Part shown: piece after piece, positions 24,164 through 41,928 of the stretch | How the letters are laid out: the number at the start of each line of letters is the position of its first letter | Numbering within the stretch: the stretch's first letter is position 1 | DNA from: a virus | Lineage: Duplodnaviria; Heunggongvirae; Uroviricota; Caudoviricetes | Length of the DNA stretch: 64,000 nt | Reading direction: 5' to 3' (one strand) | Virus record (IMG/VR): IMGVR_UViG_2925891887_000001 | Program-made: the position numbers and the translations under genes | Notes under the pieces: generated by a model | The model's input: only the letters and a program-made list of their open reading frames with translations | Told to the model about the DNA's origin: nothing | Databases searched by the model: none

Positions 24164-24583
24164 ATGCTAAATTATCATGACAATACGCGTTCTATGCAGA
24201 CGATCCGCACCAATACTGCGGTCATCGACAGCTTTCCTATGCGTATTCACAACAGTGAAGACGCAGTAGAAGTGCGACGTATGTTGTGCCGTGAATCAGC
24301 TAACCGCCAGCACTTCATCGTCACTTTTAAGAGCGATGTGGCGCGTGCCGAAAAGATCTCTAATTCTACGTCACTGGTTAAACCGTTGGCCGAGGTTGTC
24401 GCTAACGGTAAACGAACCTCTTTTGTTTTAGATGTTGCTGAACAATATCCTGACTTGAAGTGTTTAGATCGTGATATTTCTTCACGAATCAAACAAGTTG
24501 TAGAGTCTTTTATGAAGAAATTCTGTAAAATCGATGATATGGAACCATCAACGGCACAGAATACTTCATGGCACCATCTCTAA
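24164..24583 (+). CDS. hypothetical protein
   Basis: 139-aa ORF, first gene after a 220-bp non-coding gap following the lysis genes. Confidence 0.5.
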   Translation: MLNYHDNTRSMQTIRTNTAVIDSFPMRIHNSEDAVEVRRMLCRESANRQHFIVTFKSDVARAEKISNSTSLVKPLAEVVANGKRTSFVLDVAEQYPDLKCLDRDISSRIKQVVESFMKKFCKIDDMEPSTAQNTSWHHL

Positions 24584-25341
24584 TTGGTCAGGCGAACAGA
24601 TTAATCCCTGAAATAGAAGACTACAGCAAGGTCTTGTCTGAAATGCCGAGAGCGACGAGAATTATCGCTCTCGGTGAGTTCTATTTTATCTCCCGAGGTT
24701 TCGATCTAATTCGATTTACCGAATACGAGCTTGTTGATTCGGCCTATGAACGCTGTATTGTTGGCGAGTGTCTTGAGTCATGTGATCCTGATTACCAAGA
24801 GCAGGAAGTTAAGCGACTCAAACGTGCTGGTTACACACCTCTTGAGATAGGAGCAGAAATTGAATCCTACAAGTTGCATGTGGGGCAGCCAGTCCAAACA
24901 GTCTTCCGCGTGGCCTACTGCGAGTTTCCAATCAAGGATAAATCTGGAGTAAAAGTCAGCGCCAAGCAGATTAGAGGGGTTTTTACTCATGCTGATTATA
25001 TGGGATTAGGCATCGCAAGTTTTGCTTACCTTTATCTCGTAGATAAGTATCAGTACTTGGTTTGCGATACGTTACAGACGGTAAAAGGCGCAACTCTTTG
25101 GGCTGTGAGTATGCGCAAACATGGACTGGTCGAAATTTACGATACGAAGAACGAAAATTTTATAGAGGAATTGGGTGAGGATGCCTGTGGCGTAAGTGGT
25201 TTTATTCCGTGGGATATCGGTAAGTCTGACGGAGGCCAGATGCGAAGACGTGAAGAGTGGGGGACTAATAAAATCAATCTCACCCCAGGTGCTTGTACTC
25301 ATATAGTGAACATTCTGACTAAACGATCTATGAATCAATAA
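24568..25341 (+). CDS. hypothetical protein
   Basis: 257-aa ORF followed by a hairpin plus T-run terminator. Confidence 0.55.
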   Translation: MAPSLIGQANRLIPEIEDYSKVLSEMPRATRIIALGEFYFISRGFDLIRFTEYELVDSAYERCIVGECLESCDPDYQEQEVKRLKRAGYTPLEIGAEIESYKLHVGQPVQTVFRVAYCEFPIKDKSGVKVSAKQIRGVFTHADYMGLGIASFAYLYLVDKYQYLVCDTLQTVKGATLWAVSMRKHGLVEIYDTKNENFIEELGEDACGVSGFIPWDIGKSDGGQMRRREEWGTNKINLTPGACTHIVNILTKRSMNQ

Positions 25342-25342
25342 A

Positions 25343-25366
25343 CCCGCTACGGCGGGTTTTTTGTTA
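25343..25366 (+). terminator. Rho-independent terminator
   Basis: CCCGCTACGGCGGG hairpin followed by TTTTTTGTT. Confidence 0.7.
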
Positions 25367-25490
25367 TTAAGCCCCCCCTATGTACCTATCATTAAACCTT
25401 TACACCGCAGCCGTAGGCATTTAGGCTATATCACATATAAGAAAACAAGTTGTTTCAGACGATAATTATATACGCAAAGGGAACTCTCCA

Positions 25491-26159
25491 ATGACCAAGA
25501 TCTTTGTGGTTGGCGGCACAAAGGGCGGGCCTGGCAAATCCACCGTTGCCCAGCAAATTGCCGTTTGCCTGAAAGTCAAAAAGAAGAAGAAGGTTTATAT
25601 TACCGATATAGATATTCAGCGCACGACAACGAGCTGGTGTGAAGACCGTCGACAGAACGAAGACCTTGAGCTGATTCCTTTCGCATACGTTCAGGATGAC
25701 ATCATTAAGCACCTAAAATCGCTTCAGGGTAGAGCTGAGTTTGTAGTGGTAGATGCTGGTGGCTTCGACTCCGAAATTCAGCGACAAGCGATGCTGATGG
25801 CTGACGTTATCATTATCCCGCTGCGTCCTAAGCGTCGTGATTTGAAATCTTTACGTGACATCGATCCTATTATCGACAATGTTCGCAATGTAAACGATAA
25901 AGTGAAGGTCCGCGCGGTCATGAACCAGTGCCCGGCTTTGCCATCACAAGTGTCTCGCATTCTGGCGGCTAAAGAGATTGTTGAGACGTTTGGCATCGAG
26001 TCTGCGCCAGTCAATCTATATAACCGCAACGTCTATGATGATGCGGAAGAGTCTGGTCGTTCTATCTTTGAAATGACCGGTAGCGAGCGCGACAAAAAGG
26101 CGGAAGCCGAGTTTGAAGAATTTGTAGATTATCTGTTGAGTCTGGAGGAAGAAGAATAA
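25491..26159 (+). CDS. parA: ParA-family partition ATPase
   Basis: N-terminal deviant Walker A (GGTKGGPGKST), about 220 aa, followed by a small overlapping gene. Confidence 0.75.
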   Translation: MTKIFVVGGTKGGPGKSTVAQQIAVCLKVKKKKKVYITDIDIQRTTTSWCEDRRQNEDLELIPFAYVQDDIIKHLKSLQGRAEFVVVDAGGFDSEIQRQAMLMADVIIIPLRPKRRDLKSLRDIDPIIDNVRNVNDKVKVRAVMNQCPALPSQVSRILAAKEIVETFGIESAPVNLYNRNVYDDAEESGRSIFEMTGSERDKKAEAEFEEFVDYLLSLEEEE

Positions 26160-26518
26160 TGTCCATGAAAATGGGTGACCTAGCAAAGCGCAAAGAGCCT
26201 GATGCACCGGCTAAGAACACAACTCCTTTGCGCCAACCAGTCAGACCACAGGGACGCCCGACTCGTGGCAAAGAGAAAATTAAAAGCCGCACAATGTCAC
26301 TGGAGGACGAATACTTCGAACTGCTGGAGATGATGAAGTTCATCCCTCGCTTCGAGAAGTTCACTCGTTCTGACGTGATTCGTGCTGCTATTTTCCATCT
26401 TGCGGAGAAGACACCGCAGGAAATCGAGGACATCGTGAAACTTAACGAGGCGATCACAGCTGCCGATGTCACGATGCGTACCGATGAAATTAAACGCGAG
26501 TTGATGAAGAAAGGGTGA
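26159..26518 (+). CDS. small partition/centromere-binding protein candidate (ParG-like ribbon-helix-helix)
   Basis: 119 aa, basic N-terminus, RHH-like segment (RTMSLEDEYFELLEMM...SDVIRAAIFHL); start overlaps parA stop. Confidence 0.5.
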   Translation: MSMKMGDLAKRKEPDAPAKNTTPLRQPVRPQGRPTRGKEKIKSRTMSLEDEYFELLEMMKFIPRFEKFTRSDVIRAAIFHLAEKTPQEIEDIVKLNEAITAADVTMRTDEIKRELMKKG

Positions 26519-26569
26519 TTATATTGGGCGTTTGTTACGCCCAATATATGAGTTGAAGGATAGACACCA

Positions 26570-28276
26570 ATGGAATCGATAGAAGTATTTTTAAAAAATT
26601 TTTTGGACTCAGATCATCGGGTTGCTGTCATAAAAGGAAATTGGGGAGTAGGTAAAACGCATTATTGGAATAGCTTTTATACTAAACATTCTAAAAAATT
26701 AGATTTTAATGCATATTCATATGTTTCTTTGTTTGGAATAAATTCTATTGGAGACATTAAAAAAGCTCTTTATCATTGTGCCACACCAATTAATGAAAAG
26801 AAATATAAAGAACTGATTTTATCTGAAACGGATCGAACTATGATTCGTTATAGAAATGGGTTTTGGGGATGGTTGAAATACAACTCCTTGTCAAAATTTA
26901 TAATACATTTTGGAAAGAACGATTTTTTTGGGTTCAAAACTGATAATCTGCTGTCATCTCTTGAGTATAAATTTGTTAATAATTATTTGGTTTGCATTGA
27001 TGATATTGAACGAAAAGGTAGTGCGCTAGAAATTAAAGAGATTATGGGGGTAATTGATGAGTTGGCAAGAAGAAAAAATTGCAAGGTTGTTCTAATATTA
27101 AATGAAGATAACTTACATGAAGAAACTGCACAACAACAGTTTTTAGAGTATAGAGAAAAAATAATTGATGTGGAAATAAAATACGATCCCACGCCTGAGA
27201 AAAACTTAAGAAAAGTTTTTTATGAGACTGACCCTGATTTTCTTTTGTTAAAAAACCTAGCAAATGATTTAAACATCAAAAACATTAGAATATTAAATAA
27301 AATAAAATCATCTCTAGTTATATTTAGAGATGTGCTAAAGTTAGCAGAGGATAAGGTTAGAGAAAGTTTTATTAATAGATTGGTCTTATTTTCAGTGGTT
27401 TACTATTTTGGTGTTCCTAGCGTTGATTATGCTTCATTTAAGGAGTCAATCAAAAATATACATGCATTCGACTATATGTTAGATGATAAAGATGAAAAGG
27501 AAGAAGTTAACTCTGTATATTCATTTGTTAATAGCCTTGATGTTATTTATGAACGAGCAGAAAGTGCTTTCGATGATGATATAGATTTTTACCTTAAGAA
27601 CGGTTATGTTTCTTCTGAAAGCAATATTCTAAATATAATAAAAGAAAAAAATGAACAATATAGAGATAATAGGGTTTTATGTGAGGTTTATAAAATTTGG
27701 GATGTTTTTAGAAACTCTTTTAAAGATAATGAATCAGAGTTTATTTTTCAAATTGAGCGCGTAATTAACGATAGTCTGTTGCGTATACCAATTGGACAGT
27801 TCGTAGGTTTAATAAATGTCCTAATTAAATTGGATAGAGATTGTAATAATATTATAGAGGCATATGCAGATGCTTTTGTTAATAAAGACAATGCGTATGC
27901 TACATTTAATTCTTTGCGAGTAGAGATCTTCGGAAATGAAGAATTAGGTTTCAGAATTGAAAAAAAATTGAAAGATAGAAATCCAGATGACTATAACTTA
28001 GATAAAATTATAAAAAAAATAGCTGGTGGAAGATTTAACCATAGTGATGTGAATATTCTTAACAGTTTTTCTAAAGATGATTACGTAAACTGGATATTAT
28101 CCTGTGATCAGGATGCTTTGAATTTAGTAGAAGAGACTATGCTCAAGTTCAAGGGTATGCAACACCCGACAGACGAACAGAAGAGCATCACTGATAAAGC
28201 AATAGAAGCTTTGGAGGAAGTTGCTTCAAAATCAACACTTAATAAGCTGCGTGTTAATAAAATACTCAATCATTAA
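26570..28276 (+). CDS. KAP-family-like P-loop NTPase, strongly AT-rich cargo gene
   Basis: Walker A in KAP style (GNWGVGKTHYW), Walker B (LVCIDDIER); codon usage and base composition differ sharply from neighbours. Confidence 0.6.
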   Translation: MESIEVFLKNFLDSDHRVAVIKGNWGVGKTHYWNSFYTKHSKKLDFNAYSYVSLFGINSIGDIKKALYHCATPINEKKYKELILSETDRTMIRYRNGFWGWLKYNSLSKFIIHFGKNDFFGFKTDNLLSSLEYKFVNNYLVCIDDIERKGSALEIKEIMGVIDELARRKNCKVVLILNEDNLHEETAQQQFLEYREKIIDVEIKYDPTPEKNLRKVFYETDPDFLLLKNLANDLNIKNIRILNKIKSSLVIFRDVLKLAEDKVRESFINRLVLFSVVYYFGVPSVDYASFKESIKNIHAFDYMLDDKDEKEEVNSVYSFVNSLDVIYERAESAFDDDIDFYLKNGYVSSESNILNIIKEKNEQYRDNRVLCEVYKIWDVFRNSFKDNESEFIFQIERVINDSLLRIPIGQFVGLINVLIKLDRDCNNIIEAYADAFVNKDNAYATFNSLRVEIFGNEELGFRIEKKLKDRNPDDYNLDKIIKKIAGGRFNHSDVNILNSFSKDDYVNWILSCDQDALNLVEETMLKFKGMQHPTDEQKSITDKAIEALEEVASKSTLNKLRVNKILNH

Positions 28277-28448
28277 TAGATTATGACCTGCTTCCGTATG
28301 TATTTAATAAGTTACTTATTATTTGTATATACAGAAGCAGGTCTTTTAAAGACGCCCACCAGAACAAGTCCCTTCCGTTTCCACTTCCAAAAACTGCCAC
28401 CAGTCGCTATCATCCGCTCATTGTGATAAGTAAGTAACTACCTACCAG

Positions 28449-29198
28449 GTGAGCCACATGAGCCAAATCTTTTTCGATACCATCGACAACGACCAGTACG
28501 ACTTCATGACAGAGTGGAATACCGCTGTTATGGACAAGTGGGTTGCTGAAAACATTGGTTTGTCGCGCTGCAAAGACGAGGCTGAACTGTTTGAGACGAA
28601 GTGGTTTGATTACCGCGATATGCATCCTCTCATGGCCACCTGTCTGTTTACGGAGGCATACAAACGTCAGTACTCAAATATCATGCTGACGCACGGTCGT
28701 GAACACTTTGAAACAGCTCCGTTCACCACCGGGTTAAAACGCTTGCCTTATCAGGAGTTGTCGACTGCTAATAAAACGTCGCTATGGAAAGCACGCCAGT
28801 TTGCGGATCGCTATTGCTGCTCATACGACTACTTTATCTCCACTGTTCTTTCCGCAGCTGCACGACGTCTGTGGGACAAGCTGCCTCGCCCACAGCATTT
28901 GTGGCAGCCAGAACTGATTGAGATATTTGAAGAGAAATTAGCCAGACGCGCAACAACCCGTCTGGATGACTCTCTGGTTAGCTTTAAGCATATGGGAGAC
29001 ATGCAGTTCAACCCGATTCAGGAAAGCTATTTTGAGTGGATTCTGGAGCGTTTGCGCACCATCCCTCGCAGTAAGCGCATACGCGCAATTTTCTCCGCTA
29101 TCTGGCTAATGGAAATCGTTCCAGAGCGCCTTATTTCCGCCCACTTTCCAGAAGAACTGGAAGAAGCACGGCGGTTTATTGATCCCCTATCTAATTAA
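28449..29198 (+). CDS. hypothetical protein (upstream of replicative helicase)
   Basis: 249-aa ORF; GATAAGTAAGTA motif upstream. Confidence 0.5.
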   Translation: MSHMSQIFFDTIDNDQYDFMTEWNTAVMDKWVAENIGLSRCKDEAELFETKWFDYRDMHPLMATCLFTEAYKRQYSNIMLTHGREHFETAPFTTGLKRLPYQELSTANKTSLWKARQFADRYCCSYDYFISTVLSAAARRLWDKLPRPQHLWQPELIEIFEEKLARRATTRLDDSLVSFKHMGDMQFNPIQESYFEWILERLRTIPRSKRIRAIFSAIWLMEIVPERLISAHFPEELEEARRFIDPLSN

Positions 29199-29241: not shown

Positions 29242-30582
29242 ATGACCGAACTTTGCCATACAGGACGCGGGCTGTCCGAAGAGTTTGATGAAGATTTCCA
29301 GAACAGACTGACGGCATATTTTTGTCGTGATCACGAGTTTCTTACTCGTGCGGGAGATCTGGTTGTGCCTAGCCAATTTGCCAATGCGGCCAATGCCATA
29401 TTGGTTAATATGGTTTCGGGCTATTACCGTATGTACAAGAGCGCGCCCTCTTCATCTGCAATTCTGGATATGCTTAAGCGTGCGAAACGCGATAAGACTA
29501 TCCGTGAGGAACTATTCGCCGATGTTGTTGTTGCGTTTAAGCGCATCCTTGCAGAAAAATTGTCCGATACCTCGTACATGGTTGACCAGGTATCAACCTT
29601 CGCAAAAAGCGTAGCGTTTGATGATGCTCTGATTAAGGCTGCTGAACTGAAAGAGAAGGGCGACTTTCAGGGGGCGATGGCAATCATGGCCAAGGTTCAG
29701 CAGATTGGATCGAACGAAGCGACCGGAATCTATGACTACTACACCTCCGCAAGTGAGCGATTGAAAGCGCGTGAATATGAGGCTTCAGAGGAGTATGTAC
29801 CAAACAGTATTACAACTGGACTCCCTCTTCTCGATAGGTTGCTGTACCAAAAAGGCTGGGCAAAGCGCGAAATGGTGCTCTTCATGGGGTTCGCTAAATC
29901 CGGTAAATCGACCGCAATGGGTGAGTTTTCCATAAACGCAACGCTTGCTGGCTACAATGTTCTGTATCTCTCGCTGGAGGTTCACACCAACATTTTGTCC
30001 GACCGTTTTGATGCAAGATTGTCGGAGACGGAAATGTCCAAGTTGGTGGAACGGCGCGATGAAGTTCATCGTAAGTTGGCAGAGTTGGGAGCCTCTAAGG
30101 GGATTGGTAGTTTGTGGGTTGTTGAGCGTCCGTCAGGAAGTATGTCACCGGCAGATCTGGACCGTATGCTTAACAGCATGAAAGCCAACGGCATGGTGCC
30201 TGACATGGTTGTTGTCGACTACGCAGATTTGATGCGTGCCAGTTATGACCTTCGTGATGATCGCGCCAACATTCGTAGTATCTACACCGATTTACGTGCT
30301 CTTTATGACAAGCATAACGTTGCTGGGATCACGGCATCGCAGACAAACCGTGAAGGTGGCGCGTCAGAAGTTGCCACAATGATGCACGCTGCCGACAACA
30401 TCGAAAAAGTACGTATTGCTGACCTGGTAATAACGATCAACAAAACCGAAGAAGAAGAAGCGAAAGGAGAGGCTCGTCTCTACTTTGCCGGTTCACGTAA
30501 CCAGCAGGGAGGGATCAGCATTCGCGTTAAACAAAACCTCGAACAAATGCGCTTCATTGAGCGAATCTTAGACGTTACCTAA
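29242..30582 (+). CDS. DnaB-like replicative helicase
   Basis: Walker A (GFAKSGKST), DnaB-type Walker B (VVVDYADLM), about 446 aa. Confidence 0.75.
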   Translation: MTELCHTGRGLSEEFDEDFQNRLTAYFCRDHEFLTRAGDLVVPSQFANAANAILVNMVSGYYRMYKSAPSSSAILDMLKRAKRDKTIREELFADVVVAFKRILAEKLSDTSYMVDQVSTFAKSVAFDDALIKAAELKEKGDFQGAMAIMAKVQQIGSNEATGIYDYYTSASERLKAREYEASEEYVPNSITTGLPLLDRLLYQKGWAKREMVLFMGFAKSGKSTAMGEFSINATLAGYNVLYLSLEVHTNILSDRFDARLSETEMSKLVERRDEVHRKLAELGASKGIGSLWVVERPSGSMSPADLDRMLNSMKANGMVPDMVVVDYADLMRASYDLRDDRANIRSIYTDLRALYDKHNVAGITASQTNREGGASEVATMMHAADNIEKVRIADLVITINKTEEEEAKGEARLYFAGSRNQQGGISIRVKQNLEQMRFIERILDVT

Positions 30583-30591
30583 AAAATAAGC

Positions 30592-31845
30592 GTGGAGAAC
30601 ACCTCCACGCTTGATTCATTGGTGAAACAACTTTTCTTTTGCCAAACCACAAAAGAAAAACACATGAGCCTTTATGTTATATCAACATTTAGGTTGGTCA
30701 CAATATTGCCTGTTAAAAGTGGAATTATCGTGAGCGAGCTGAAAGAGCTAATTGCCGAATTAGATTTTGAACAATGGTTGGATACTGAAGGTATCGTTTA
30801 TCGACGTGGAGGCGTGAGTGCTCGCGGTCGTGAAGTGAATATCAAAGAGTGTCCGGTATGCGGCAGCTCCAACTGGAAGGTATATTTCAATCTGACCAGT
30901 GGCGTCGGCAAATGCTTCGCTGGTGATCATCCCGAAGAGATTCAGTTCAATAAGCTGGTCTTCCTCAAGCACTACAGCGGTAAATCACGACGACAGTTCG
31001 AGGAATATGTGCAGAACGCTCTTCTTTCCCAGGGGTGGACACCAAAGAAAGAAGAGCTAGTGCTTGCAAGCACAGTCGAGTTAGAGGGGCCAGTTGCACT
31101 CCCTCGTCATTACGAGCTTCCTATAGATGGCCGTCTTCCAGACTATCTGGTTGAACGAAACATATCACCTGAAATGGCAAAGTATTTTGACCTACGATAC
31201 TGCGTCGAAGGCAAGCACGCTTATGTAGATCCGTATACAGATCAGGTAAAAGGGCAGATATTCGATATGCGAATACTGATACCGGTTTACGATCTGGATG
31301 GGGTAATGAAGACATTTCAGGGACGAGACATTACCGGTACAGCAGAACGCCGCTACCTCTTTCCTATGCAGCTTCCAGCTTCAGGTAAATTTCTCTACAA
31401 CGGCCATAATGCAGTCGGCAAACAGACTGTAGTTGTCTGTGAGGGTTCGTTCGATGTTATGGGGGTCAAACGAGCTATTTTCGACGAAGAAACATTACGT
31501 GATTACGTGGAGCCAATAGGAACGTTCGGGATGCATCTATCTGGCAACACCACTCAGGATGCAGAAGATCAGTTGGGCGCGTTCCTGACGCTCAAGGCGC
31601 GTGGATTACGTAATGTGATCATGATGTGGGATAGTGAAAAGCAAGCTATACGAAACACGATGGCCGCAGCCAGGCGACTGACCAGTATTGGTCTTAATGT
31701 CAAAGTTGCGTGTTTGGGCGAGGAAGGACTCGACCCCGGCGATGCGACACCGGGGCAGATTATCAAAGCCTACTATTGCGCAAAACCTTATTCACGACAG
31801 CTTGAACTTTTAAGCAAGGTAAAAGGTATAGCAGCATTAGTTTGA
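30592..31845 (+). CDS. DNA primase (zinc ribbon plus TOPRIM)
   Basis: CPVCGSSNW...CFAGDH zinc-binding motif and TOPRIM-like acidic motifs (VVVCEGSFD); start uncertain. Confidence 0.65.
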   Translation: MENTSTLDSLVKQLFFCQTTKEKHMSLYVISTFRLVTILPVKSGIIVSELKELIAELDFEQWLDTEGIVYRRGGVSARGREVNIKECPVCGSSNWKVYFNLTSGVGKCFAGDHPEEIQFNKLVFLKHYSGKSRRQFEEYVQNALLSQGWTPKKEELVLASTVELEGPVALPRHYELPIDGRLPDYLVERNISPEMAKYFDLRYCVEGKHAYVDPYTDQVKGQIFDMRILIPVYDLDGVMKTFQGRDITGTAERRYLFPMQLPASGKFLYNGHNAVGKQTVVVCEGSFDVMGVKRAIFDEETLRDYVEPIGTFGMHLSGNTTQDAEDQLGAFLTLKARGLRNVIMMWDSEKQAIRNTMAAARRLTSIGLNVKVACLGEEGLDPGDATPGQIIKAYYCAKPYSRQLELLSKVKGIAALV

Positions 31846-33090
31846 ACCAGTATTAGTCACGTAAACATTGACCGAAAATGATTTAACTTCTGTGTTGAAG
31901 TTGTCAGTCATTACCGCGAGGTAGGCATTCTTGGTATCTCTGAATTGCTTCAGGATGATTTGAACGTTATCGGTGCAAACAAACGAGGTAGCCAGATTGC
32001 CTCCTTTCTCTGAAAAATCCTTCAAGAAGGTGCAGTCAACTTTGCCATCATTAGCGGTGAAGACGGCATCATCACCCTGCCAGGTAAATGTTGCGTTAAC
32101 GCCTTTATCAATGGATTTAGCAATAAGTCGCTGAGTGTCAGATTTGGCATTTTGCTGTTTTGAAGGCGAACGGAACGTACCTTTTGCTTTCATTGCAGCA
32201 ACGTTTTCGCAGCCCGTTTCGTCATCTTTATCGCAAGCAGCTTGGTAAAGCTCTGATGCTTTCCGATAATCCTGTTTGACGCCCAATCCCTTAAGATACA
32301 TGTAACCAAGGTGGTTCATGGCATAATCATTTCCTAAGCTGATTGCTTGTTCTAAAAGACTTCTGGCCTTCGAATAGTCTTTTTTTATACCTTCTCCATG
32401 CATCAACTTGTATCCAAGCGCGCTCATGGCGTTATTATTTCCTAATTCAGCTGCTTTCAAGTACCACTTAATTGCCTCTTTATTGTTGCGCTTAACAGCA
32501 ACACCATCGTCGTACATAGAGCCTAGCCCATACATTCCTGCGGCATTTCCACTATCCGCAGCCTTTTTATAAGATTTAAATGCTTTCTTGTAATCTTTCG
32601 GAACTCCCTTACCGTATTGATATAAATATCCCATATAGGCAAGCGAAGGTATATCACCAGCTTCTACTGCTAGTTTGTGATATTTTAAAGCAGCTTCTGG
32701 GTCCTCCTTTCCAGTCCAACCTCGTTCGTATATAACGGCAAGATTATGGTAAGCACTGCCGTTGCGAGCATTTCCTGCTAGTTTGTAGTACTCAACGGCC
32801 TTATTTAGATCTTTATCTACTCCCTTCCCAATTGTGTACATAACCCCAAGCGCATAATATGCTACTTTATCTCCCTTTTCTGCGGCGAGATCGATCCACT
32901 TCTTGGCCTCTACTAAATCCTCATCAAAGCCATTAGCCCCATCCAAATAATTTGTCCCTAACGCACTTTGTGCTGTGGTATCTCCTGCGGTGGCGGCGTC
33001 GATCAGCGTTTGTTTATTATCTGCGTTAACGTATCCAGGGCCGAAAAGCAAAGCTAATGCCAGCAACGATGAAGGTTTTATGAGTTTCAT
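31837..33090 (-). CDS. secreted Sel1-like repeat (TPR-like) protein
   Basis: Signal peptide then multiple about 36-aa repeats of Sel1 type (A..YYKLAA..G...A...LG.MY..G.GV..D); only large minus-strand gene in the replication block. Confidence 0.7.
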   Translation of the reverse strand: MKLIKPSSLLALALLFGPGYVNADNKQTLIDAATAGDTTAQSALGTNYLDGANGFDEDLVEAKKWIDLAAEKGDKVAYYALGVMYTIGKGVDKDLNKAVEYYKLAGNARNGSAYHNLAVIYERGWTGKEDPEAALKYHKLAVEAGDIPSLAYMGYLYQYGKGVPKDYKKAFKSYKKAADSGNAAGMYGLGSMYDDGVAVKRNNKEAIKWYLKAAELGNNNAMSALGYKLMHGEGIKKDYSKARSLLEQAISLGNDYAMNHLGYMYLKGLGVKQDYRKASELYQAACDKDDETGCENVAAMKAKGTFRSPSKQQNAKSDTQRLIAKSIDKGVNATFTWQGDDAVFTANDGKVDCTFLKDFSEKGGNLATSFVCTDNVQIILKQFRDTKNAYLAVMTDNFNTEVKSFSVNVYVTNTGSN

Positions 33091-38739: not shown

Positions 38740-38894
38740 GACACAGCGTTGAGCGGTTTGGCCTTTTAATCAACTCGATTAAGACTCCGCTAACATAAAC
38801 CAGACCGCTCAACGCTGTGATAGATAATTACGGCAGACGTTCTTAACCATAGCTTGCTAACATCCTAGCAACACTTTTTTCAGCGCAAAATTCA

Positions 38895-38918
38895 AAGGGG
38901 CTTCGGCCCCTTTTTTGT
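38895..38918 (+). terminator. Rho-independent terminator closing the tRNA cluster
   Basis: AAAGGGGC-TTCG-GCCCC hairpin followed by TTTTTTGTT. Confidence 0.75.
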
Positions 38919-38931
38919 TGAACAGTGCAAT

Positions 38932-40194
38932 TTACTTTGCATAGTCGCCCAATTTTAATATTTCGCGCTTATATTCATTAACCATGCTACTGGATTCAGT
39001 ATAAATTCGATTTAAAAGATTATCGTTATCTTTATTTTCATTTATCTTAATTAGTGCTAATTTATATTCATAGTCATCAAATGCCACAATTAAATGGTGG
39101 CCTGGGATTATATCTTCGTCACTCTTAAAGTATATATCTTCAAGTATGTAATCTAGTTGATTAGATTTTCTTTTCTCGATGTAATCTTCAGCCATAGCTA
39201 TTACATCATTCCTGTCATTTAACCTGTTTTTTTCGGAAGGCACATCTTCGTAATGTTGCACGATTGAACAACCAATAAGGCGTGGGATGTAAACGTCAAA
39301 ATGAGTAACTCTATCATTCGCGGTTTTAAGTAGTTCCTCAAAGTAGTTTCTTACATGTAAAGGCAACTTCTCAAAGTAATCATTAATTATAGGAGAACAA
39401 GGAGTTTTATAATTCATAAGAACCGACGGTACGAGCTTTGGGTGTCGAAACATCCAGTCCCTTTTAACGTCCGATGGAACATAATAACTTTTAATGATAT
39501 TATCAAAATAATTTATCATTCGAGATTTGAATATTTTGTTGAATCTAAGGTTTATGAATGTATCCAGATAAGGCATATTTGAATAAGCATCATCAAAAAA
39601 TATTTCATCATTGAAAAAATCATATTTATTCAATAAACAACACAGTTTTTCCGAATTAATATGTTCACAATAATCGATTTTTAATCCAAAGATAGCAATG
39701 ATCAACTTCATCTGAGGTGGGATTTTAAAAATTAATTGTGACACATACGCTCTTTTTTCCTTGAGACATTCCCCATCAATATAAAATGAACCATCCACAT
39801 ACTCAAATATATTAATAATATGCTTCACATACTGTATTACCTCATGCTGTCTTACCAATGGATAATATAGTCTATGTAACTCATCGCTGTTTAAATTAAT
39901 TTTGTGTTTATCGATAATTTGTTTTGCAAGAAGACATAACTCATCATGTTGATTTAATAAGGAATCAAACCATTGTTTAAATGCACTCTTTCGCATTTCG
40001 AACAATGATTCAGTTGTTAATTGAAGGGCTGAAAAAGCTGCTTTTGCACTTTTTCTCGCTTCGTAGGCATTCCATGCTGTTGCTATAAAAGCAAATGCTG
40101 TAGCCAATGTTCCAACAGTTTGACCATTTAAAACAACCCAATCCCAAAAAATGACGGTGAGCAGTAGTATAATAATGAAAATTAAAAAAGGCAT
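38932..40194 (-). CDS. AT-rich membrane-anchored protein of unknown function (cargo gene)
   Basis: 420-aa ORF, two N-terminal hydrophobic helices, strongly AT-rich, adjacent to tRNAs and an integrase. Confidence 0.55.
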   Translation of the reverse strand: MPFLIFIIILLLTVIFWDWVVLNGQTVGTLATAFAFIATAWNAYEARKSAKAAFSALQLTTESLFEMRKSAFKQWFDSLLNQHDELCLLAKQIIDKHKINLNSDELHRLYYPLVRQHEVIQYVKHIINIFEYVDGSFYIDGECLKEKRAYVSQLIFKIPPQMKLIIAIFGLKIDYCEHINSEKLCCLLNKYDFFNDEIFFDDAYSNMPYLDTFINLRFNKIFKSRMINYFDNIIKSYYVPSDVKRDWMFRHPKLVPSVLMNYKTPCSPIINDYFEKLPLHVRNYFEELLKTANDRVTHFDVYIPRLIGCSIVQHYEDVPSEKNRLNDRNDVIAMAEDYIEKRKSNQLDYILEDIYFKSDEDIIPGHHLIVAFDDYEYKLALIKINENKDNDNLLNRIYTESSSMVNEYKREILKLGDYAK

Positions 40195-40368
40195 GTATGT
40201 ATTTCACTCTACTAACTATAAAATATTAGGCTAATGTTAACCAAACAATGCCTTAATTAATAGATTGATCGAGGCTTTAATAGCTTTATAATGCAGACTT
40301 TAAAGATAAGTATGCACATACCTATCTTCTTTGTAAGTAAAGTTGCATATCAATTCTATGAGGTAACA

Positions 40369-40824: not shown

Positions 40825-41928
40825 ATGAAAAATAGCTTTGACAGAGCACGCGCTGCGGAGAACACCTCAAAAGAGGCGATTGAGTATCTCGAAAGAGCAT
40901 CTCAAATGCAGGCCGTTATGATCTCGCAGGTCAGCAATGACATGAGATTCTCGGACGCATTCATGTTATTCACTCGCTTATCTCTGCTGATAACAAGACG
41001 TCGGCCAGAGATCGCTGTTCATTGTATTTTGATACATGTTTTGCCGCACATTGCCGATGTAAAAGTAAGTGACATTAATAGGTTCATGGTGAACCAACTG
41101 GTCAACCCACTAATACTGGATGGCAAAATTGTTATGGGCCGCCGCGTTTTCTCTCTGATGAAGCAGTTCCTTAGCTGGTGCGCCTTCCAGGGGATGATAG
41201 ACGTGTCACCGTTAAACGATATGTCACTAAACAAAGTTGCCGGTGGCGCAAAGCCCACACCTCGCGAGCGGAAGCTGACCGACGCAGAGGTATGGGTGTT
41301 CTGGAATATATGGGACTACTTCAATGTGTGCGCTGGTACAAAATGGGCGGCCAGGCTGTGTCTTGTATCCGCAAGACGACCTGACGAAGTACTGCGGGCT
41401 AAAAAAAGTGAGTTCAATCTTAAGCGTGGGGTTTGGAATCAAGGCAAGAGGAACAAATCTGCCCGTGAGCATTCGCTGCCTTTAAGCACATTAATGCGCA
41501 CATGTATTGAAGAGTTGTTCGAATACGGTAAAGGCAGCCAGTGGCTCGTGCCTTCGAATAAAAAAATCGGGAAAGACCTTCCTATGTCTAAAGTGGCAAT
41601 AGCCCAGGCATTACGTCGTATCCTGGAACGACCAGAACTGATGGAGCTTGAGCCATTTACACCCCGAGACTTGCGCCGTACTGCGCGTAGTTACTTCCCA
41701 GCATTAGGCATAAGCCAGGAGGTCTCACGCAAAATCATGAACCACAGTCTTGAGGGGATAGATCGAGTCTACGACCGGCACGATTATATGGACGAGATGC
41801 GAGACGCCTTAGAAAGTTTCTCGACGTACATCGCATCAATCGTAGAGCAACCGGATTTAGACGAAATTGACCACAAATTCAAGGGAGATCGTCTATCAAC
41901 AGAGCTTATTCGTGTAAATTTTTCATAG
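40825..41928 (+). CDS. tyrosine recombinase/integrase
   Basis: C-terminal catalytic signature (RDLRRTARSY ... HS..G.DRVYDRHDY); 367 aa. Confidence 0.75.
   Translation: MKNSFDRARAAENTSKEAIEYLERASQMQAVMISQVSNDMRFSDAFMLFTRLSLLITRRRPEIAVHCILIHVLPHIADVKVSDINRFMVNQLVNPLILDGKIVMGRRVFSLMKQFLSWCAFQGMIDVSPLNDMSLNKVAGGAKPTPRERKLTDAEVWVFWNIWDYFNVCAGTKWAARLCLVSARRPDEVLRAKKSEFNLKRGVWNQGKRNKSAREHSLPLSTLMRTCIEELFEYGKGSQWLVPSNKKIGKDLPMSKVAIAQALRRILERPELMELEPFTPRDLRRTARSYFPALGISQEVSRKIMNHSLEGIDRVYDRHDYMDEMRDALESFSTYIASIVEQPDLDEIDHKFKGDRLSTELIRVNFS

What the first reader, a model, noticed from the sequence alone, without database searches (positions are those of the whole stretch)
26570..28276. Strongly AT-rich KAP-like P-loop NTPase directly after the partition genes: candidate defence or exclusion cargo
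The 568-aa ORF has a KAP-style Walker A (GNWGVGKTHYW) and Walker B (LVCIDDIER) followed by a long, divergent Asn/Lys/Ile-rich region. Its composition is clearly foreign relative to flanking genes, and it is bounded by a large hairpin containing an AAGTTACTT palindrome. KAP NTPases are frequent in defence islands; a phage-plasmid carrying one next to parA is a plausible exclusion system against competing phages.
Basis: partly seen in the sequence, partly recalled or inferred. Interest (0 to 1): 0.7.

Follow-up and report, generated by a model that had tools for sequence, protein, structure and literature searches.

The report
Phage-plasmid hotspot carrying a KAP NTPase
A foreign, AT-rich gene for a soluble KAP-type ATPase sits in a swap-in slot of an E. 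coli phage-plasmid where close relatives carry known or candidate anti-phage genes, so it is most likely an untested anti-phage gene of an already recognised kind.

Summary
ORF 26570-28276 (+) encodes a 568-aa protein with intact Walker A and B motifs. It passes Pfam KAP_NTPase, and its GC is 0.295 against 0.465 for the rest of the window (z = -5.2).

The element is an SSU5-like E. coli phage-plasmid. The gene fills a precisely bounded slot (26520-28284) between the parA/119-aa operon and the replication module. In relatives whose flanking genes are 98-100% identical, the slot holds one of:
- a PD-T4-3-like GIY-YIG gene;
- a DUF2971 gene (PADLOC candidate PDC-S31);
- a 351-aa gene of unknown function;
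- a KAP allele only 76% identical.

Homologues elsewhere are always stand-alone. In 14 of 31 non-redundant viral loci they lie next to a P2-type portal gene, i.e. at the cos-proximal gpA-gpQ locus where P2 carries old and tin.

The protein is soluble. It has an AAA+/STAND-like NTPase core and a conserved all-helical C-terminal domain with no enzyme fold. It is under purifying selection and diverges fastest at the C-terminus.

The 3' hairpin belongs to the conserved backbone, not to the cargo. The C-terminal half is a conserved domain, not a degenerate tail.

Verdict: a candidate single-gene defence or exclusion NTPase. It is related to PADLOC PDC-S49 and resembles PifA in architecture. It is a new member of a known kind, and its function is inferred, not shown.

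The parts
25491..26159 (+). parA: a type-Ib-like partition ATPase of 222 aa. It is the conserved left flank of the slot.
   Evidence: NCBIfam ParA_partition E 1.9e-33, Pfam MipZ/AAA_31/CbiA, and phrog_164 ParA-like. It is 99.5-100% identical in Cyrano, PhiR41_1, CMS-2020a and p09EL50.
26159..26518 (+). A 119-aa gene that overlaps the parA stop. It is the presumed partition partner and the last conserved gene before the slot.
   Evidence: phrog_5111 E 1.5e-79, unknown function. The only other hit is a weak ribbon-helix-helix-type match to aCcr1_fam, E 2e-4. Homology with relatives that lack the KAP gene ends at 26514-26519, which is its stop codon.
26520..26548 (+). A perfect 12-bp stem with a 5-nt loop, starting just after the stop of the 119-aa gene, with no U-tract. 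It is the first feature on the cargo side of the left breakpoint.
   Evidence: dG -17.9, z -5.3. It is conserved in the 76% allele loci. Salmonella and Klebsiella KAP loci carry different GC-rich hairpins at this position.
26520..28284 (.). The exchangeable cargo segment, defined by the homology breakpoints against relatives that hold other cargo.
   Evidence: blastn breakpoints are 26514-26519 on the left and 28280-28286 on the right, against Cyrano, PhiR41_1 and SSU5.
26570..28276 (+). The KAP-clade P-loop NTPase gene: 568 aa, soluble, stand-alone. An AAGGA Shine-Dalgarno sequence lies at 26556-26560.
   Evidence: Pfam PF07693, PADLOC PDC-S49, and phrog_4740 E 1.6e-165 over the full length. 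No transmembrane segment: the highest KD-19 value is 1.6. dN/dS is 0.10-0.29.
26636..26659 (+). Walker A motif, GNWGVGKT (aa 23-30).
   Evidence: G23, W25, G26, G28, K29 and T30 are invariant in 41 sequences.
26858..26944 (+). An aromatic-rich, low-confidence insert (aa 97-125) between Walker A and Walker B. It is not a transmembrane segment.
   Evidence: pLDDT is below 50 for aa 97-125. Hydropathy is below transmembrane level. Tmn carries two transmembrane helices inserted within its P-loop domain (PMC13001434). That this insert occupies the equivalent position is my inference.
26993..27013 (+). Walker B and the following motif, CIDDIER (aa 142-148).
   Evidence: C142, D144, D145, E147 and R148 are invariant. 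The motif aligns to VMDDLDR of PifA.
27344..28273 (+). C-terminal all-alpha domain (aa 259-568). It is specific to this family and is the fastest-diverging part between alleles.
28285..28343 (+). Conserved backbone hairpin followed by TTTT. It is the probable terminator that closes the slot and marks the right recombination boundary.
   Evidence: dG -28.3, z -7.2. The lower 15-bp stem is kept in all 7 backbones across E. coli, Salmonella and Klebsiella whatever the cargo. No Rfam family matches. The arm motif occurs nowhere else in the window.
28449..29198 (+). First gene of the conserved right flank (phrog_2500, 249 aa). A DnaB-like helicase (29242-30582) and a primase (30592-31845) follow.
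   Evidence: It is 98-99.6% identical in the E. coli relatives.

Best explanation
The gene is accessory cargo in a recombination-delimited hotspot of an SSU5-like phage-plasmid. It most likely protects the carrier cell, and so the resident element, against competing phages.

Shown by computation:
- It is a stand-alone, soluble, 568-aa KAP-clade P-loop NTPase with intact catalytic motifs.
- It has an AAA+/STAND-like core and a conserved helical C-terminal domain with no recognisable enzymatic effector.
- It is under purifying selection.
- Its alleles are far older than the surrounding backbone, and they differ most in the C-terminal domain.
- The same slot in near-identical backbones carries other defence-type genes.
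- Homologues sit in other prophage hotspots.

Inferred:
- The gene is expressed in the plasmid state, mainly by read-through from the par operon. I base this on its own Shine-Dalgarno sequence, the lack of a convincing promoter, and an upstream hairpin with no U-tract. Transcription probably ends at the conserved hairpin plus TTTT at 28285-28343.
- The helical C-terminal domain acts as the specificity or sensor surface that binds a product of an infecting phage.
- Binding switches the NTPase into an NTP-dependent oligomeric state, as in STAND and AAA+ switches.
- The active assembly then halts the infection. With no effector domain present, the most likely route is direct sequestration or remodelling of a phage protein or DNA complex. 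A PifA-like abortive collapse is less likely.
- Cargo is exchanged between related phage-plasmids by homologous recombination in the conserved flanks, not by a dedicated recombinase.
For: Identity:
- Pfam KAP_NTPase scores 25.7 against a cut-off of 20.
- PADLOC PDC-S49 gives E 2e-21, and the same model hits 10 further family members.
- phrog_4740 matches over the full length.
- Catalytic residues are invariant.
- No transmembrane helix is present.

Hotspot:
- Breakpoints fall at 26514-26519 and 28280-28286.
- The slot holds DUF2971/PDC-S31 in Cyrano and SSU5 (E 3e-41) and a GIY-YIG gene matching PD-T4-3 in PhiR41_1 (E 1.6e-23).
- A further occupant is a 351-aa gene of unknown function.
- In PLSDB, the PD-T4-3-like gene is present at 95% identity or more in 135 plasmids, the Cyrano-type DUF2971 in 26, and KAP in 22 E. 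coli or Shigella plasmids plus about 90 from Klebsiella, Salmonella and Citrobacter.
- In complete E. coli genomes, 27 of 259 carriers of this backbone have KAP in the slot.
- DefenseFinder-based work independently reports PD-T4-3 in E. coli and Shigella SSU5-group elements (bioRxiv 10.1101/2025.09.12.675607).

Selection and exchange:
- Flanking genes are 98-100% identical while KAP is 76% identical.
- KAP dS is 0.57 against 0.007-0.14 in the flanks.
- dN/dS rises from 0.10 at the N-terminus to 0.29 at the C-terminus.
- Nucleotide identity falls gradually from the left and jumps back to 96% just past the right-hand hairpin.

Other contexts:
- 14 of 31 non-redundant viral loci have a P2-type portal next door, and 6 have gpA upstream. 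This is the old/tin hotspot described in PMC9122126.
- Other positions are repressor-adjacent moron sites in Pseudomonas prophages and a site next to an OLD-family nuclease in Shewanella.
- The gene is AT-richer than its flanks in 31 of 31 viral loci.

Precedent:
- Single-gene KAP NTPases with uncharacterised C-terminal regions protect E. faecalis. Protection depends on Walker B and is not abortive (PMC12632615).
- PifA is a KAP protein without transmembrane helices that excludes T7 (PMC13001434).
Against: - No experiment exists for this protein or for its family. The PDC-S49 and PDC-S31 models carry PADLOC's candidate (PDC) label, and I found no paper that names PDC-S49.
- PDC-S49 models cover only the N-terminal 200-450 of about 620 profile positions.
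- No effector domain is identifiable, so the step that stops infection is a guess.
- Several chromosomal homologues are lone insertions among housekeeping genes, with no defence neighbours.
- The best structural neighbours are replication initiators and transposition ATPases, and the gene lies between the par and rep modules.
- Hotspots in mobile elements also carry anti-defence genes and other cargo.
- Expression by read-through is not demonstrated. The promoter scan found nothing above chance.
Confidence: 0.62

Rival explanations
1. It is an inter-element competition factor, not an anti-phage gene in the strict sense. On this reading the NTPase excludes or destabilises incoming related phage-plasmids or other plasmids, for instance by binding their replication or partition complexes, and so favours the resident element.
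For: - The gene lies between the partition and replication modules.
- The structural neighbours are DNA-bound AAA+ assemblies: Cdc6/ORC, TnsC, MuB and DnaA.
- QatA, another KAP NTPase, binds DNA and forms hepta- or octamers (PMC13279940).
- Curing an SSU5-like plasmid from K. pneumoniae raised both phage plaquing and plasmid transformation (PMC8969562).
- Alleles are diverse within one backbone.
Against: - Homologues sit in integrated P2-like and Pseudomonas prophages and in chromosomes, where plasmid incompatibility is irrelevant.
- The authors of the Klebsiella study attribute their phenotype to an RM system on the plasmid. I could not check whether that plasmid has the gene, because it is not in the local collections.
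- The alternative slot occupants are of anti-phage type.
Confidence: 0.14
2. It is an accessory partition or replication protein of the phage-plasmid. Possible roles are an initiator, loader or segregation helper that works with ParA or with the DnaB-like helicase and primase.
For: - The gene is immediately downstream of parA and the 119-aa gene, and upstream of the helicase and primase.
- In Klebsiella the annotated start overlaps the upstream gene.
- A Pseudomonas frederiksbergensis homologue lies near a ParA-like gene.
Against: - About 90% of E. coli backbones with 98-100% identical par and rep genes lack the gene and carry an unrelated gene in its place.
- Composition is foreign.
- Alleles are 39-76% identical where the backbone is 82-100% identical.
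- Most homologues are in contexts with no par or rep genes.
Confidence: 0.07
3. It is an anti-defence or establishment gene that protects the phage-plasmid from host immunity on entry.
For: Variable regions of mobile elements hold anti-defence genes as well as defence genes. SSU5-group elements carry the Rad anti-retron system. The gene has no recognisable effector domain.
Against: - The protein resembles sensor or switch NTPases of defence systems: a PDC-S49 hit and NLR and RdrA structural neighbours.
- It occurs as a lone chromosomal insertion and next to an OLD-family nuclease.
- In my experience known anti-defence proteins are mostly small and are not large NTPases (own knowledge).
- The alternative occupant of the slot is a defence nuclease family.
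Confidence: 0.07
4. It is a decaying or functionless foreign remnant that happens to keep NTPase motifs.
For: Extreme AT-richness, and no experimentally assigned function.
Against: - The reading frame is intact in all alleles.
- dN/dS is 0.10-0.29.
- 40 columns are invariant over the full length in 41 sequences.
- A profile of the C-terminal domain finds 1708 50%-identity cluster representatives at E 1e-3 or better. Almost all of the listed full-length ones share the same two-domain architecture.
Confidence: 0.02

Closest known systems
PADLOC candidate PDC-S49 (single-gene 'phage defence candidate')
   Same: It is the only PADLOC family hit, at E 2e-21 and 74 bits. All 10 other family members tested hit it as well, at 60-104 bits. 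Profile length (about 620 positions) and the single-gene status are similar.
   Different: Matches cover only profile positions from about 8 to 450, and the C-terminal third never aligns. The family here is therefore a relative, not a core member. The model carries PADLOC's candidate (PDC) label, and I found no paper that names PDC-S49.
PifA of the F plasmid (KAP NTPase that excludes phage T7)
   Same: It is a KAP-clade NTPase with no transmembrane helices, carried on a plasmid close to replication and partition genes, and followed by a long non-catalytic C-terminal region (PMC13001434). Its Walker B block VMDDLDR aligns to CIDDIER here.
   Different: - Similarity is restricted to the NTPase core: BLASTP E 0.13 at 23% identity, hhalign probability 44%.
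- PifA is 740 aa against 568 aa here.
- PifA sits in an operon with the repressor PifC, and no such partner exists here.
- PifA acts by membrane depolarisation and nucleotide leakage. Nothing here indicates membrane association.
EF_KAP and other KAP NTPase plus 'effector region' single-gene defences (RADS preprint, PMC12632615)
   Same: The architecture is the same: a KAP NTPase followed by about 300 aa with no known domain, in a single gene on mobile DNA. In that study Walker B is required and protection is not abortive.
   Different: EF_KAP has two N-terminal transmembrane helices and comes from Firmicutes. The protein here is soluble.
QatA of QatABCD
   Same: [quoted passage not shown] It binds DNA and forms hepta- or octamers (PMC13279940).
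   Different: QatA works in a four-gene operon. No QatB, QatC or QatD is next to this gene or its homologues. PADLOC gave no family other than PDC-S49 at E up to 0.1.
[quoted passage not shown]
   Same: It is a single-gene, plasmid-borne P-loop NTPase defence with variable sensor regions, and Walker A is essential.
   Different: Tmn has two transmembrane helices inserted within its P-loop domain and forms a decameric pore that exports Mg2+. Here the segment between Walker A and Walker B is a 29-aa non-membrane insert. There is no HMM hit to Tmn.
P2 old/tin hotspot and P4 hotspot (Rousset et al. 2022, PMC9122126)
   Same: The logic is the same: conserved flanks, mutually exclusive defence cargo, and cargo that is AT-rich. 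Homologues of this gene occupy the P2-type gpA-gpQ locus in 14 of 31 viral loci. That paper's hotspot table lists both KAP_NTPase and DUF2971 cargo.
   Different: The slot here lies in a phage-plasmid between the par and rep modules, not next to cos. I could not show that the E. coli P2 KAP_NTPase entries belong to this same family.

Membership tests
KAP family P-loop NTPases (Pfam PF07693; Aravind et al. 2004) | Profile match above the curated threshold | tested here: met
   25.7 bits against the gathering score of 20, over aa 18-258 and profile positions 22-282 of 293. PF07693 is precomputed on almost all homologues.
KAP family P-loop NTPases (Pfam PF07693; Aravind et al. 2004) | Walker A GxxGxGK[ST] and Walker B hhhhDDxDR-type block | tested here: met
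   GNWGVGKT at aa 23-30 and LVCIDDIER at aa 140-148, with E in place of the second-motif D. The residues are invariant in 41 sequences and align to PifA's VMDDLDR.
KAP family P-loop NTPases (Pfam PF07693; Aravind et al. 2004) | Transmembrane helices associated with the NTPase domain (typical of the family; PifA is a known exception) | tested here: not met
   The highest 19-residue Kyte-Doolittle value is 1.6, in a segment that contains R, Q and K. The insert at aa 97-125 is low-confidence and not hydrophobic. PifA also lacks transmembrane helices (PMC13001434).
KAP family P-loop NTPases (Pfam PF07693; Aravind et al. 2004) | Alpha-helical C-terminal extension | tested here: met
PADLOC PDC-S49 | Full-length match to the PDC-S49 profiles | tested here: inconclusive
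   The hits are significant (E 2e-21) but cover only profile positions 8-319 of 624. The other two models give partial matches. The same pattern holds for 10 relatives.
PHROG phrog_4740 | Full-length profile match | tested here: met
   E 1.6e-165, aa 1-567 against profile positions 3-625 of 627. The family's function is unknown.
Pif system (PifA/PifC) | Homology to PifA beyond the generic NTPase core, and an adjacent pifC repressor | tested here: not met
   BLASTP E 0.13. hhalign probability is 44% over the NTPase only. No pifC-like neighbour is present.
QatABCD | Operon with QatB, QueC-like QatC and TatD-like QatD | tested here: not met
   The neighbours are par and rep genes. No such partners appear in 9 chromosomal contexts or among the Pfam families most often matched by 120 viral neighbours. 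PADLOC gave no other family.
Tmn / YobI family | Two transmembrane helices inserted within the P-loop domain | tested here: not met
   No transmembrane segment and no PADLOC hit other than PDC-S49.
STAND NTPases (Avs-like) | STAND-type NTPase profile match, plus a C-terminal repeat sensor and an N-terminal effector | tested here: not met
Defence hotspot of a mobile element (sensu Rousset et al. 2022) | Conserved flanks with mutually exclusive, diverse cargo that includes a known defence system | tested here: met
   The breakpoints are sharp. The occupants are KAP, a PD-T4-3-like GIY-YIG gene, DUF2971/PDC-S31 and a 351-aa unknown gene.
Anti-phage defence gene (functional class) | Reduced phage propagation when expressed, dependent on the NTPase motifs | not testable with these tools
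   This needs plaque or EOP assays. Only analogies are available (PMC12632615).

The most novel reading that the evidence does not exclude
This fixed two-domain family, which a profile of its C-terminal domain finds in 1708 50%-identity cluster representatives, could be a soluble immune NTPase with no effector domain. On this reading it stops phages by a mechanism not yet described for KAP proteins. The helical C-terminal domain would recognise a phage replisome, partition or packaging component. The ORC/TnsC-like core would then assemble on that target or on DNA and block it directly, without killing the cell. The par-rep slot of SSU5-type phage-plasmids would then be an unrecognised defence hotspot. 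That would also explain why DefenseFinder reports no defence systems in the pWPMR2-like Shigella sonnei phage-plasmids, which probably carry the 76% allele.
Probability: 0.15. Interest if true: 0.65.

Novelty: new member of a known kind. Interest (0 to 1): 0.4.

Why it matters
SSU5-type phage-plasmids are common in clinical E. coli, Shigella sonnei, Salmonella and Klebsiella. Here 259 of 5426 complete E. coli genomes carry this backbone. The 76% allele cluster P0007, named by its source as S. sonnei, was seen on 928 contigs.

If the slot after the par operon is a defence hotspot, it is a compact and easily swapped determinant of which phages can infect the carrier strain. That matters for phage therapy and for understanding competition between mobile elements.

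It would also supply a tractable natural set of alternative cargos for side-by-side testing: KAP alleles, a PD-T4-3-like gene, DUF2971, and a 351-aa unknown gene.

The KAP family itself is large and has no assigned function. A phenotype would annotate more than a thousand protein clusters. It would also test whether KAP NTPases that lack both a membrane anchor and an effector domain can defend on their own.

Tried and rejected
- NCBIfam: no hit for the protein.
- PDB sequence search with the family profile: no hit at E up to 1.
- Pfam on the isolated C-terminal domain: nothing meaningful.
- Literature search for 'PDC-S49': no paper.
- The hairpin as a cassette-specific boundary, att-like site or repeated binding site: rejected. 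It is backbone-conserved, its arm motif is unique in the window, and it matches no Rfam family. A protein-binding palindrome cannot be fully excluded, because the stem is conserved mostly by sequence invariance.
- Positive selection as the cause of allele divergence: rejected. dN/dS is 0.10-0.29 and dS is far above that of the flanks, which points to allele replacement.
- Modular reuse of the C-terminal domain with other N-terminal domains: not seen. The shorter hits look like fragments.
- Linking the Klebsiella p2 curing phenotype to this gene: failed. CP085480 is not in the local collections, and the authors favour an RM system.
- Linking the E. coli P2-hotspot KAP_NTPase entries of Rousset et al. 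to this family: failed.
- Promoter scan: no signal above chance.
Full report
**1. The observation**

The ORF is as described: 26570..28276 on the + strand, 568 aa. An AAGGA ribosome-binding site lies 9 nt upstream of the ATG. Walker A (GNWGVGKT, aa 23-30) and Walker B (CIDDIER, aa 142-148) are present. Their key residues are invariant in an alignment of 41 family members that share only 28-77% identity with the query.

The composition anomaly is strong:

| Measure | KAP gene | Comparison |
|---|---|---|
| GC | 0.295 | flanking genes 0.47-0.50 |
| GC3 | 0.236 | flanking genes 0.46-0.57 |
| z of GC | -5.2 | all other 1707-bp windows of the 64-kb window |

The hairpin is real. It lies at 28285-28343 with an AAGTTACTT core, dG -28.3 kcal/mol, z -7.2, and is followed by TTTT.

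**2. The element and the slot**

The window comes from an SSU5-like phage-plasmid of E. coli. Megablast finds Escherichia phages Cyrano, PhiR41_1 and CMS-2020a, and Salmonella phage SSU5. It also finds 656 plasmids, mostly non-mobilizable, many of them around 110 kb. In complete E. coli genomes the segment occurs in 259 of 5426, always on plasmids.

The local gene order is:
- endolysin and spanins;
- a first variable region;
- parA (25491-26159);
- a 119-aa gene (26159-26518, phrog_5111);
- the KAP gene;
- phrog_2500;
- a DnaB-like helicase;
- a primase.

Against relatives that lack the KAP gene, homology stops at 26514-26519, the stop codon of the 119-aa gene. It resumes at 28280-28286, the first bases of the hairpin. 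The cargo segment is therefore 26520-28284.

The hairpin belongs to the backbone. Its lower 15-bp stem is present in all seven backbones examined, from E. coli, Salmonella and Klebsiella, whatever the slot contains. It is most simply a terminator that closes the slot. It matches no Rfam family, and its arm sequence occurs nowhere else in the window.

**3. What else occupies the slot**

| Backbone | Slot content | Evidence |
|---|---|---|
| Cyrano (same segment as pLF82) | 267-aa DUF2971 protein; PADLOC candidate PDC-S31, E 3e-41 | |
| SSU5 | two unknown genes plus a DUF2971/PDC-S31 gene | |
| PhiR41_1 and many plasmids | 255-aa GIY-YIG protein on the opposite strand; PADLOC PD-T4-3, E 1.6e-23 | |
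| pU_B2_3 | 351-aa protein with no PADLOC hit | |

PD-T4-3 is, to my knowledge, one of the systems validated by Vassallo et al. 2022. That paper's text confirms a validated GIY-YIG nuclease system. A DefenseFinder survey independently reports PD-T4-3 in E. coli and Shigella SSU5-group elements.

Rough frequencies in PLSDB:
- the PD-T4-3-like gene at 95% identity or more: 135 plasmids;
- the Cyrano-type DUF2971: 26 plasmids;
- KAP: 22 E. coli or Shigella plasmids, plus about 90 from Klebsiella, Salmonella and Citrobacter.

In Klebsiella, Salmonella and E. coli O104:H4 p09EL50 the KAP gene sits in exactly the same slot.

**4. Evolution of the gene**

| Comparison | Flanking proteins, % identity | KAP, % identity |
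|---|---|---|
| Other E. coli allele (L004, L007) | 98-100 | 76 |
| Salmonella (L006) | 88-93 | 44 |
| Klebsiella (L005) | 82-93 | 39 |

All alleles have GC of about 0.30.

Between the two E. coli alleles, identity falls from 93-100% (aa 1-140) to about 55% (aa 340-568). dS rises from 0.31 to 0.95, against 0.007-0.14 in the flanking genes. dN/dS stays below 1, at 0.10 at the N-terminus and 0.29 at the C-terminus.

At nucleotide level, identity declines gradually from the par side and jumps back to 96% just past the hairpin.

So the protein is functional and under purifying selection. The alleles are much older than the backbones they sit in. They have been exchanged by homologous recombination in the conserved flanks, and the C-terminal domain is the most diversified part.

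**5. The protein**

Family assignments:
- Pfam KAP_NTPase passes its threshold.
- PADLOC gives only PDC-S49.
- phrog_4740 matches at full length but has no assigned function.
- NCBIfam gives nothing, and no PDB sequence matches.

There is no transmembrane helix.

The AlphaFold2 model built on the 41-sequence alignment has mean pLDDT 84.3. It shows three parts:
- a five-stranded P-loop core (aa 1 to about 258);
- a disordered, aromatic-rich insert at aa 97-125, between Walker A and Walker B;
- an all-alpha region (aa 259-568).

A profile of the C-terminal domain finds 1708 representatives of 50%-identity clusters at E of 1e-3 or better (1245 at 1e-10 or better). Almost all of the full-length ones are 545-600 aa long, with the domain at about 250-570. 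The two-domain architecture is therefore fixed, and the family is large.

**6. Where homologues live**

In nine chromosomal or prophage contexts the gene is always alone:
- twice in Pseudomonas prophages, wedged between the S24 repressor and the leftward early genes;
- next to an OLD-family nuclease in Shewanella;
- next to IS66 and a T5orf172 gene in Oleispira;
- as single-gene or small islets elsewhere.

A scan of IMG/VR returned 80 loci. After removing SSU5-type and redundant loci, 31 remained. Among their immediate neighbours:

| Neighbour | Number of neighbours (of 120) |
|---|---|
| Phage_portal | 14 |
| gpP-type terminase domains | 7-10 |
| Phage_GPA | 6 |
| Peptidase_S24 | 3 |
| Integrase | 3 |

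In the ORF listing the portal-sized neighbours fall in 14 different loci, so about 45% of the loci lie next to a P2-type portal. Where gpA is also seen, the gene lies between replication gene A and portal gene Q. That is the cos-proximal locus where P2 carries old and tin, which Rousset et al. showed to be a defence hotspot (PMC9122126).

That paper's supplementary hotspot table lists both KAP_NTPase and DUF2971 genes as cargo in E. coli. I could not establish whether those KAP genes belong to this same family.

In all 31 viral loci the gene is AT-richer than its flanks, by 14 points on average.

**7. Interpretation**

Five independent lines point to accessory defence or exclusion cargo:
- alternation in one slot with a PD-T4-3-like gene and a PADLOC candidate gene;
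- recurrence in the P2-type hotspot and in repressor-adjacent moron sites;
- consistent foreign composition;
- old alleles exchanged between young backbones, with the C-terminus diversified;
- relatedness to PDC-S49.

Experimental precedents exist for the kind, though not for this family:
- PifA, a KAP protein without transmembrane helices that excludes T7;
- QatA;
- single-gene KAP NTPases with uncharacterised C-terminal regions that protect E. faecalis in a Walker-B-dependent, non-abortive way (PMC12632615).

The mechanism I favour is a sensor-switch NTPase. The helical C-terminal domain recognises a phage product, and NTP-dependent assembly then blocks the invader directly. This mechanism is inference. 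The absence of any effector fold is its main weakness.

A maintenance role is unlikely, because about 90% of E. coli backbones with identical par and rep genes lack the gene. Roles in plasmid or phage-plasmid competition, or in anti-defence, remain possible at low probability.

**8. Comparison and novelty**

The protein is a member of the KAP clade by profile and motifs, but it lacks the family's typical transmembrane helices, as does PifA. On the remaining comparisons:
- It is not a PifA homologue beyond the NTPase core.
- It is not part of a Qat operon.
- It is not a Tmn/YobI protein.
- It is not a STAND protein by profile.
- It is related to PDC-S49 but is not a core member, because matches are confined to the N-terminal part of the profiles.

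The DefenseFinder survey of SSU5-group elements reports no KAP-type gene among its defence systems. It also found no defence system in the pWPMR2-like S. sonnei clade. The 76% allele is abundant in S. sonnei: cluster P0007 was seen on 928 contigs. That the pWPMR2 lineage carries this allele is my inference from host and contig length (109,272 bp), not a tested fact.

Overall this is a new, untested member of a known kind, sitting in a hotspot that I did not find described as such in the papers I read. Interest is moderate.

Noticed in passing
window 38750-40250 (ORF 38932..40194, - strand): A second strongly AT-rich island, GC 0.30-0.33 against a window mean of 0.46. It encodes a 420-aa protein with no Pfam or PADLOC hit and lies just upstream of a tyrosine recombinase (40825..41928, +). 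It may be another cargo gene.
   Followed up: partly
window 24164-25341 (ORFs 24164..24583 and 24568..25341, +): A second variable slot, upstream of parA. Here it holds phrog_2594 and phrog_3307 genes, which have no PADLOC hit. Cyrano and p09EL50 carry a KacT-type GNAT toxin with a DUF1778 antitoxin on the opposite strand. The Klebsiella and Salmonella relatives carry a 183-185-aa unknown gene. Homology with the relatives resumes at 25338-25384, just after a terminator-like hairpin at 25340-25359.
   Followed up: partly
window 28344-28448: The non-coding stretch between the hairpin and the phrog_2500 start is highly conserved across the E. coli, Salmonella and Klebsiella backbones. Runs such as CCCTTCCGTTTCCACTTCCAAAAA, CAGTCGCTAT and TAAGTAAGT are nearly invariant, and the stretch looks at least as well conserved as the neighbouring coding DNA. 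It may be the promoter or operator of the replication module, or an origin element.
   Followed up: no
window 31837-33090 (- strand): A 417-aa protein with six Sel1 repeats and a signal-peptide-like N-terminus, convergent with the primase gene. This region differs between relatives: SSU5 has an unrelated 321-aa gene here, and Cyrano has + strand genes.
   Followed up: no
L101 1389-2447 (- strand; plasmid pU_B2_3, NZ_CP075058.1): A further alternative occupant of the same par-rep slot: a 351-aa hypothetical protein (WP_021512318.1) with no PADLOC hit. By position it is a candidate new defence gene.
   Followed up: partly
L020-L099 (IMG/VR loci), e.g. L039 2987-10470: In 31 of 31 non-redundant viral loci the KAP-family gene is AT-richer than its flanks, by 14 GC points on average. 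This holds even in high-GC hosts (for example L046: 0.535 against 0.631). The low GC travels with the family.
   Followed up: yes
P0007 and related clusters; L004 (CMS-2020a, CP054387.1): The 76% allele is very abundant in Shigella sonnei; one 90% cluster was seen on 928 contigs. It sits on elements of about 109,272 bp. A recent survey found no DefenseFinder-detectable defence system in the epidemic pWPMR2-like S. sonnei phage-plasmids, so this gene may be their unrecognised slot cargo.
   Followed up: partly
window 30592-31845 vs L001 6401-7516: The longest primase ORF in the window starts at a GTG (417 aa). Annotated relatives start the gene 45-50 codons later (371-393 aa). The N-terminal extension is probably not translated.
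   Followed up: no
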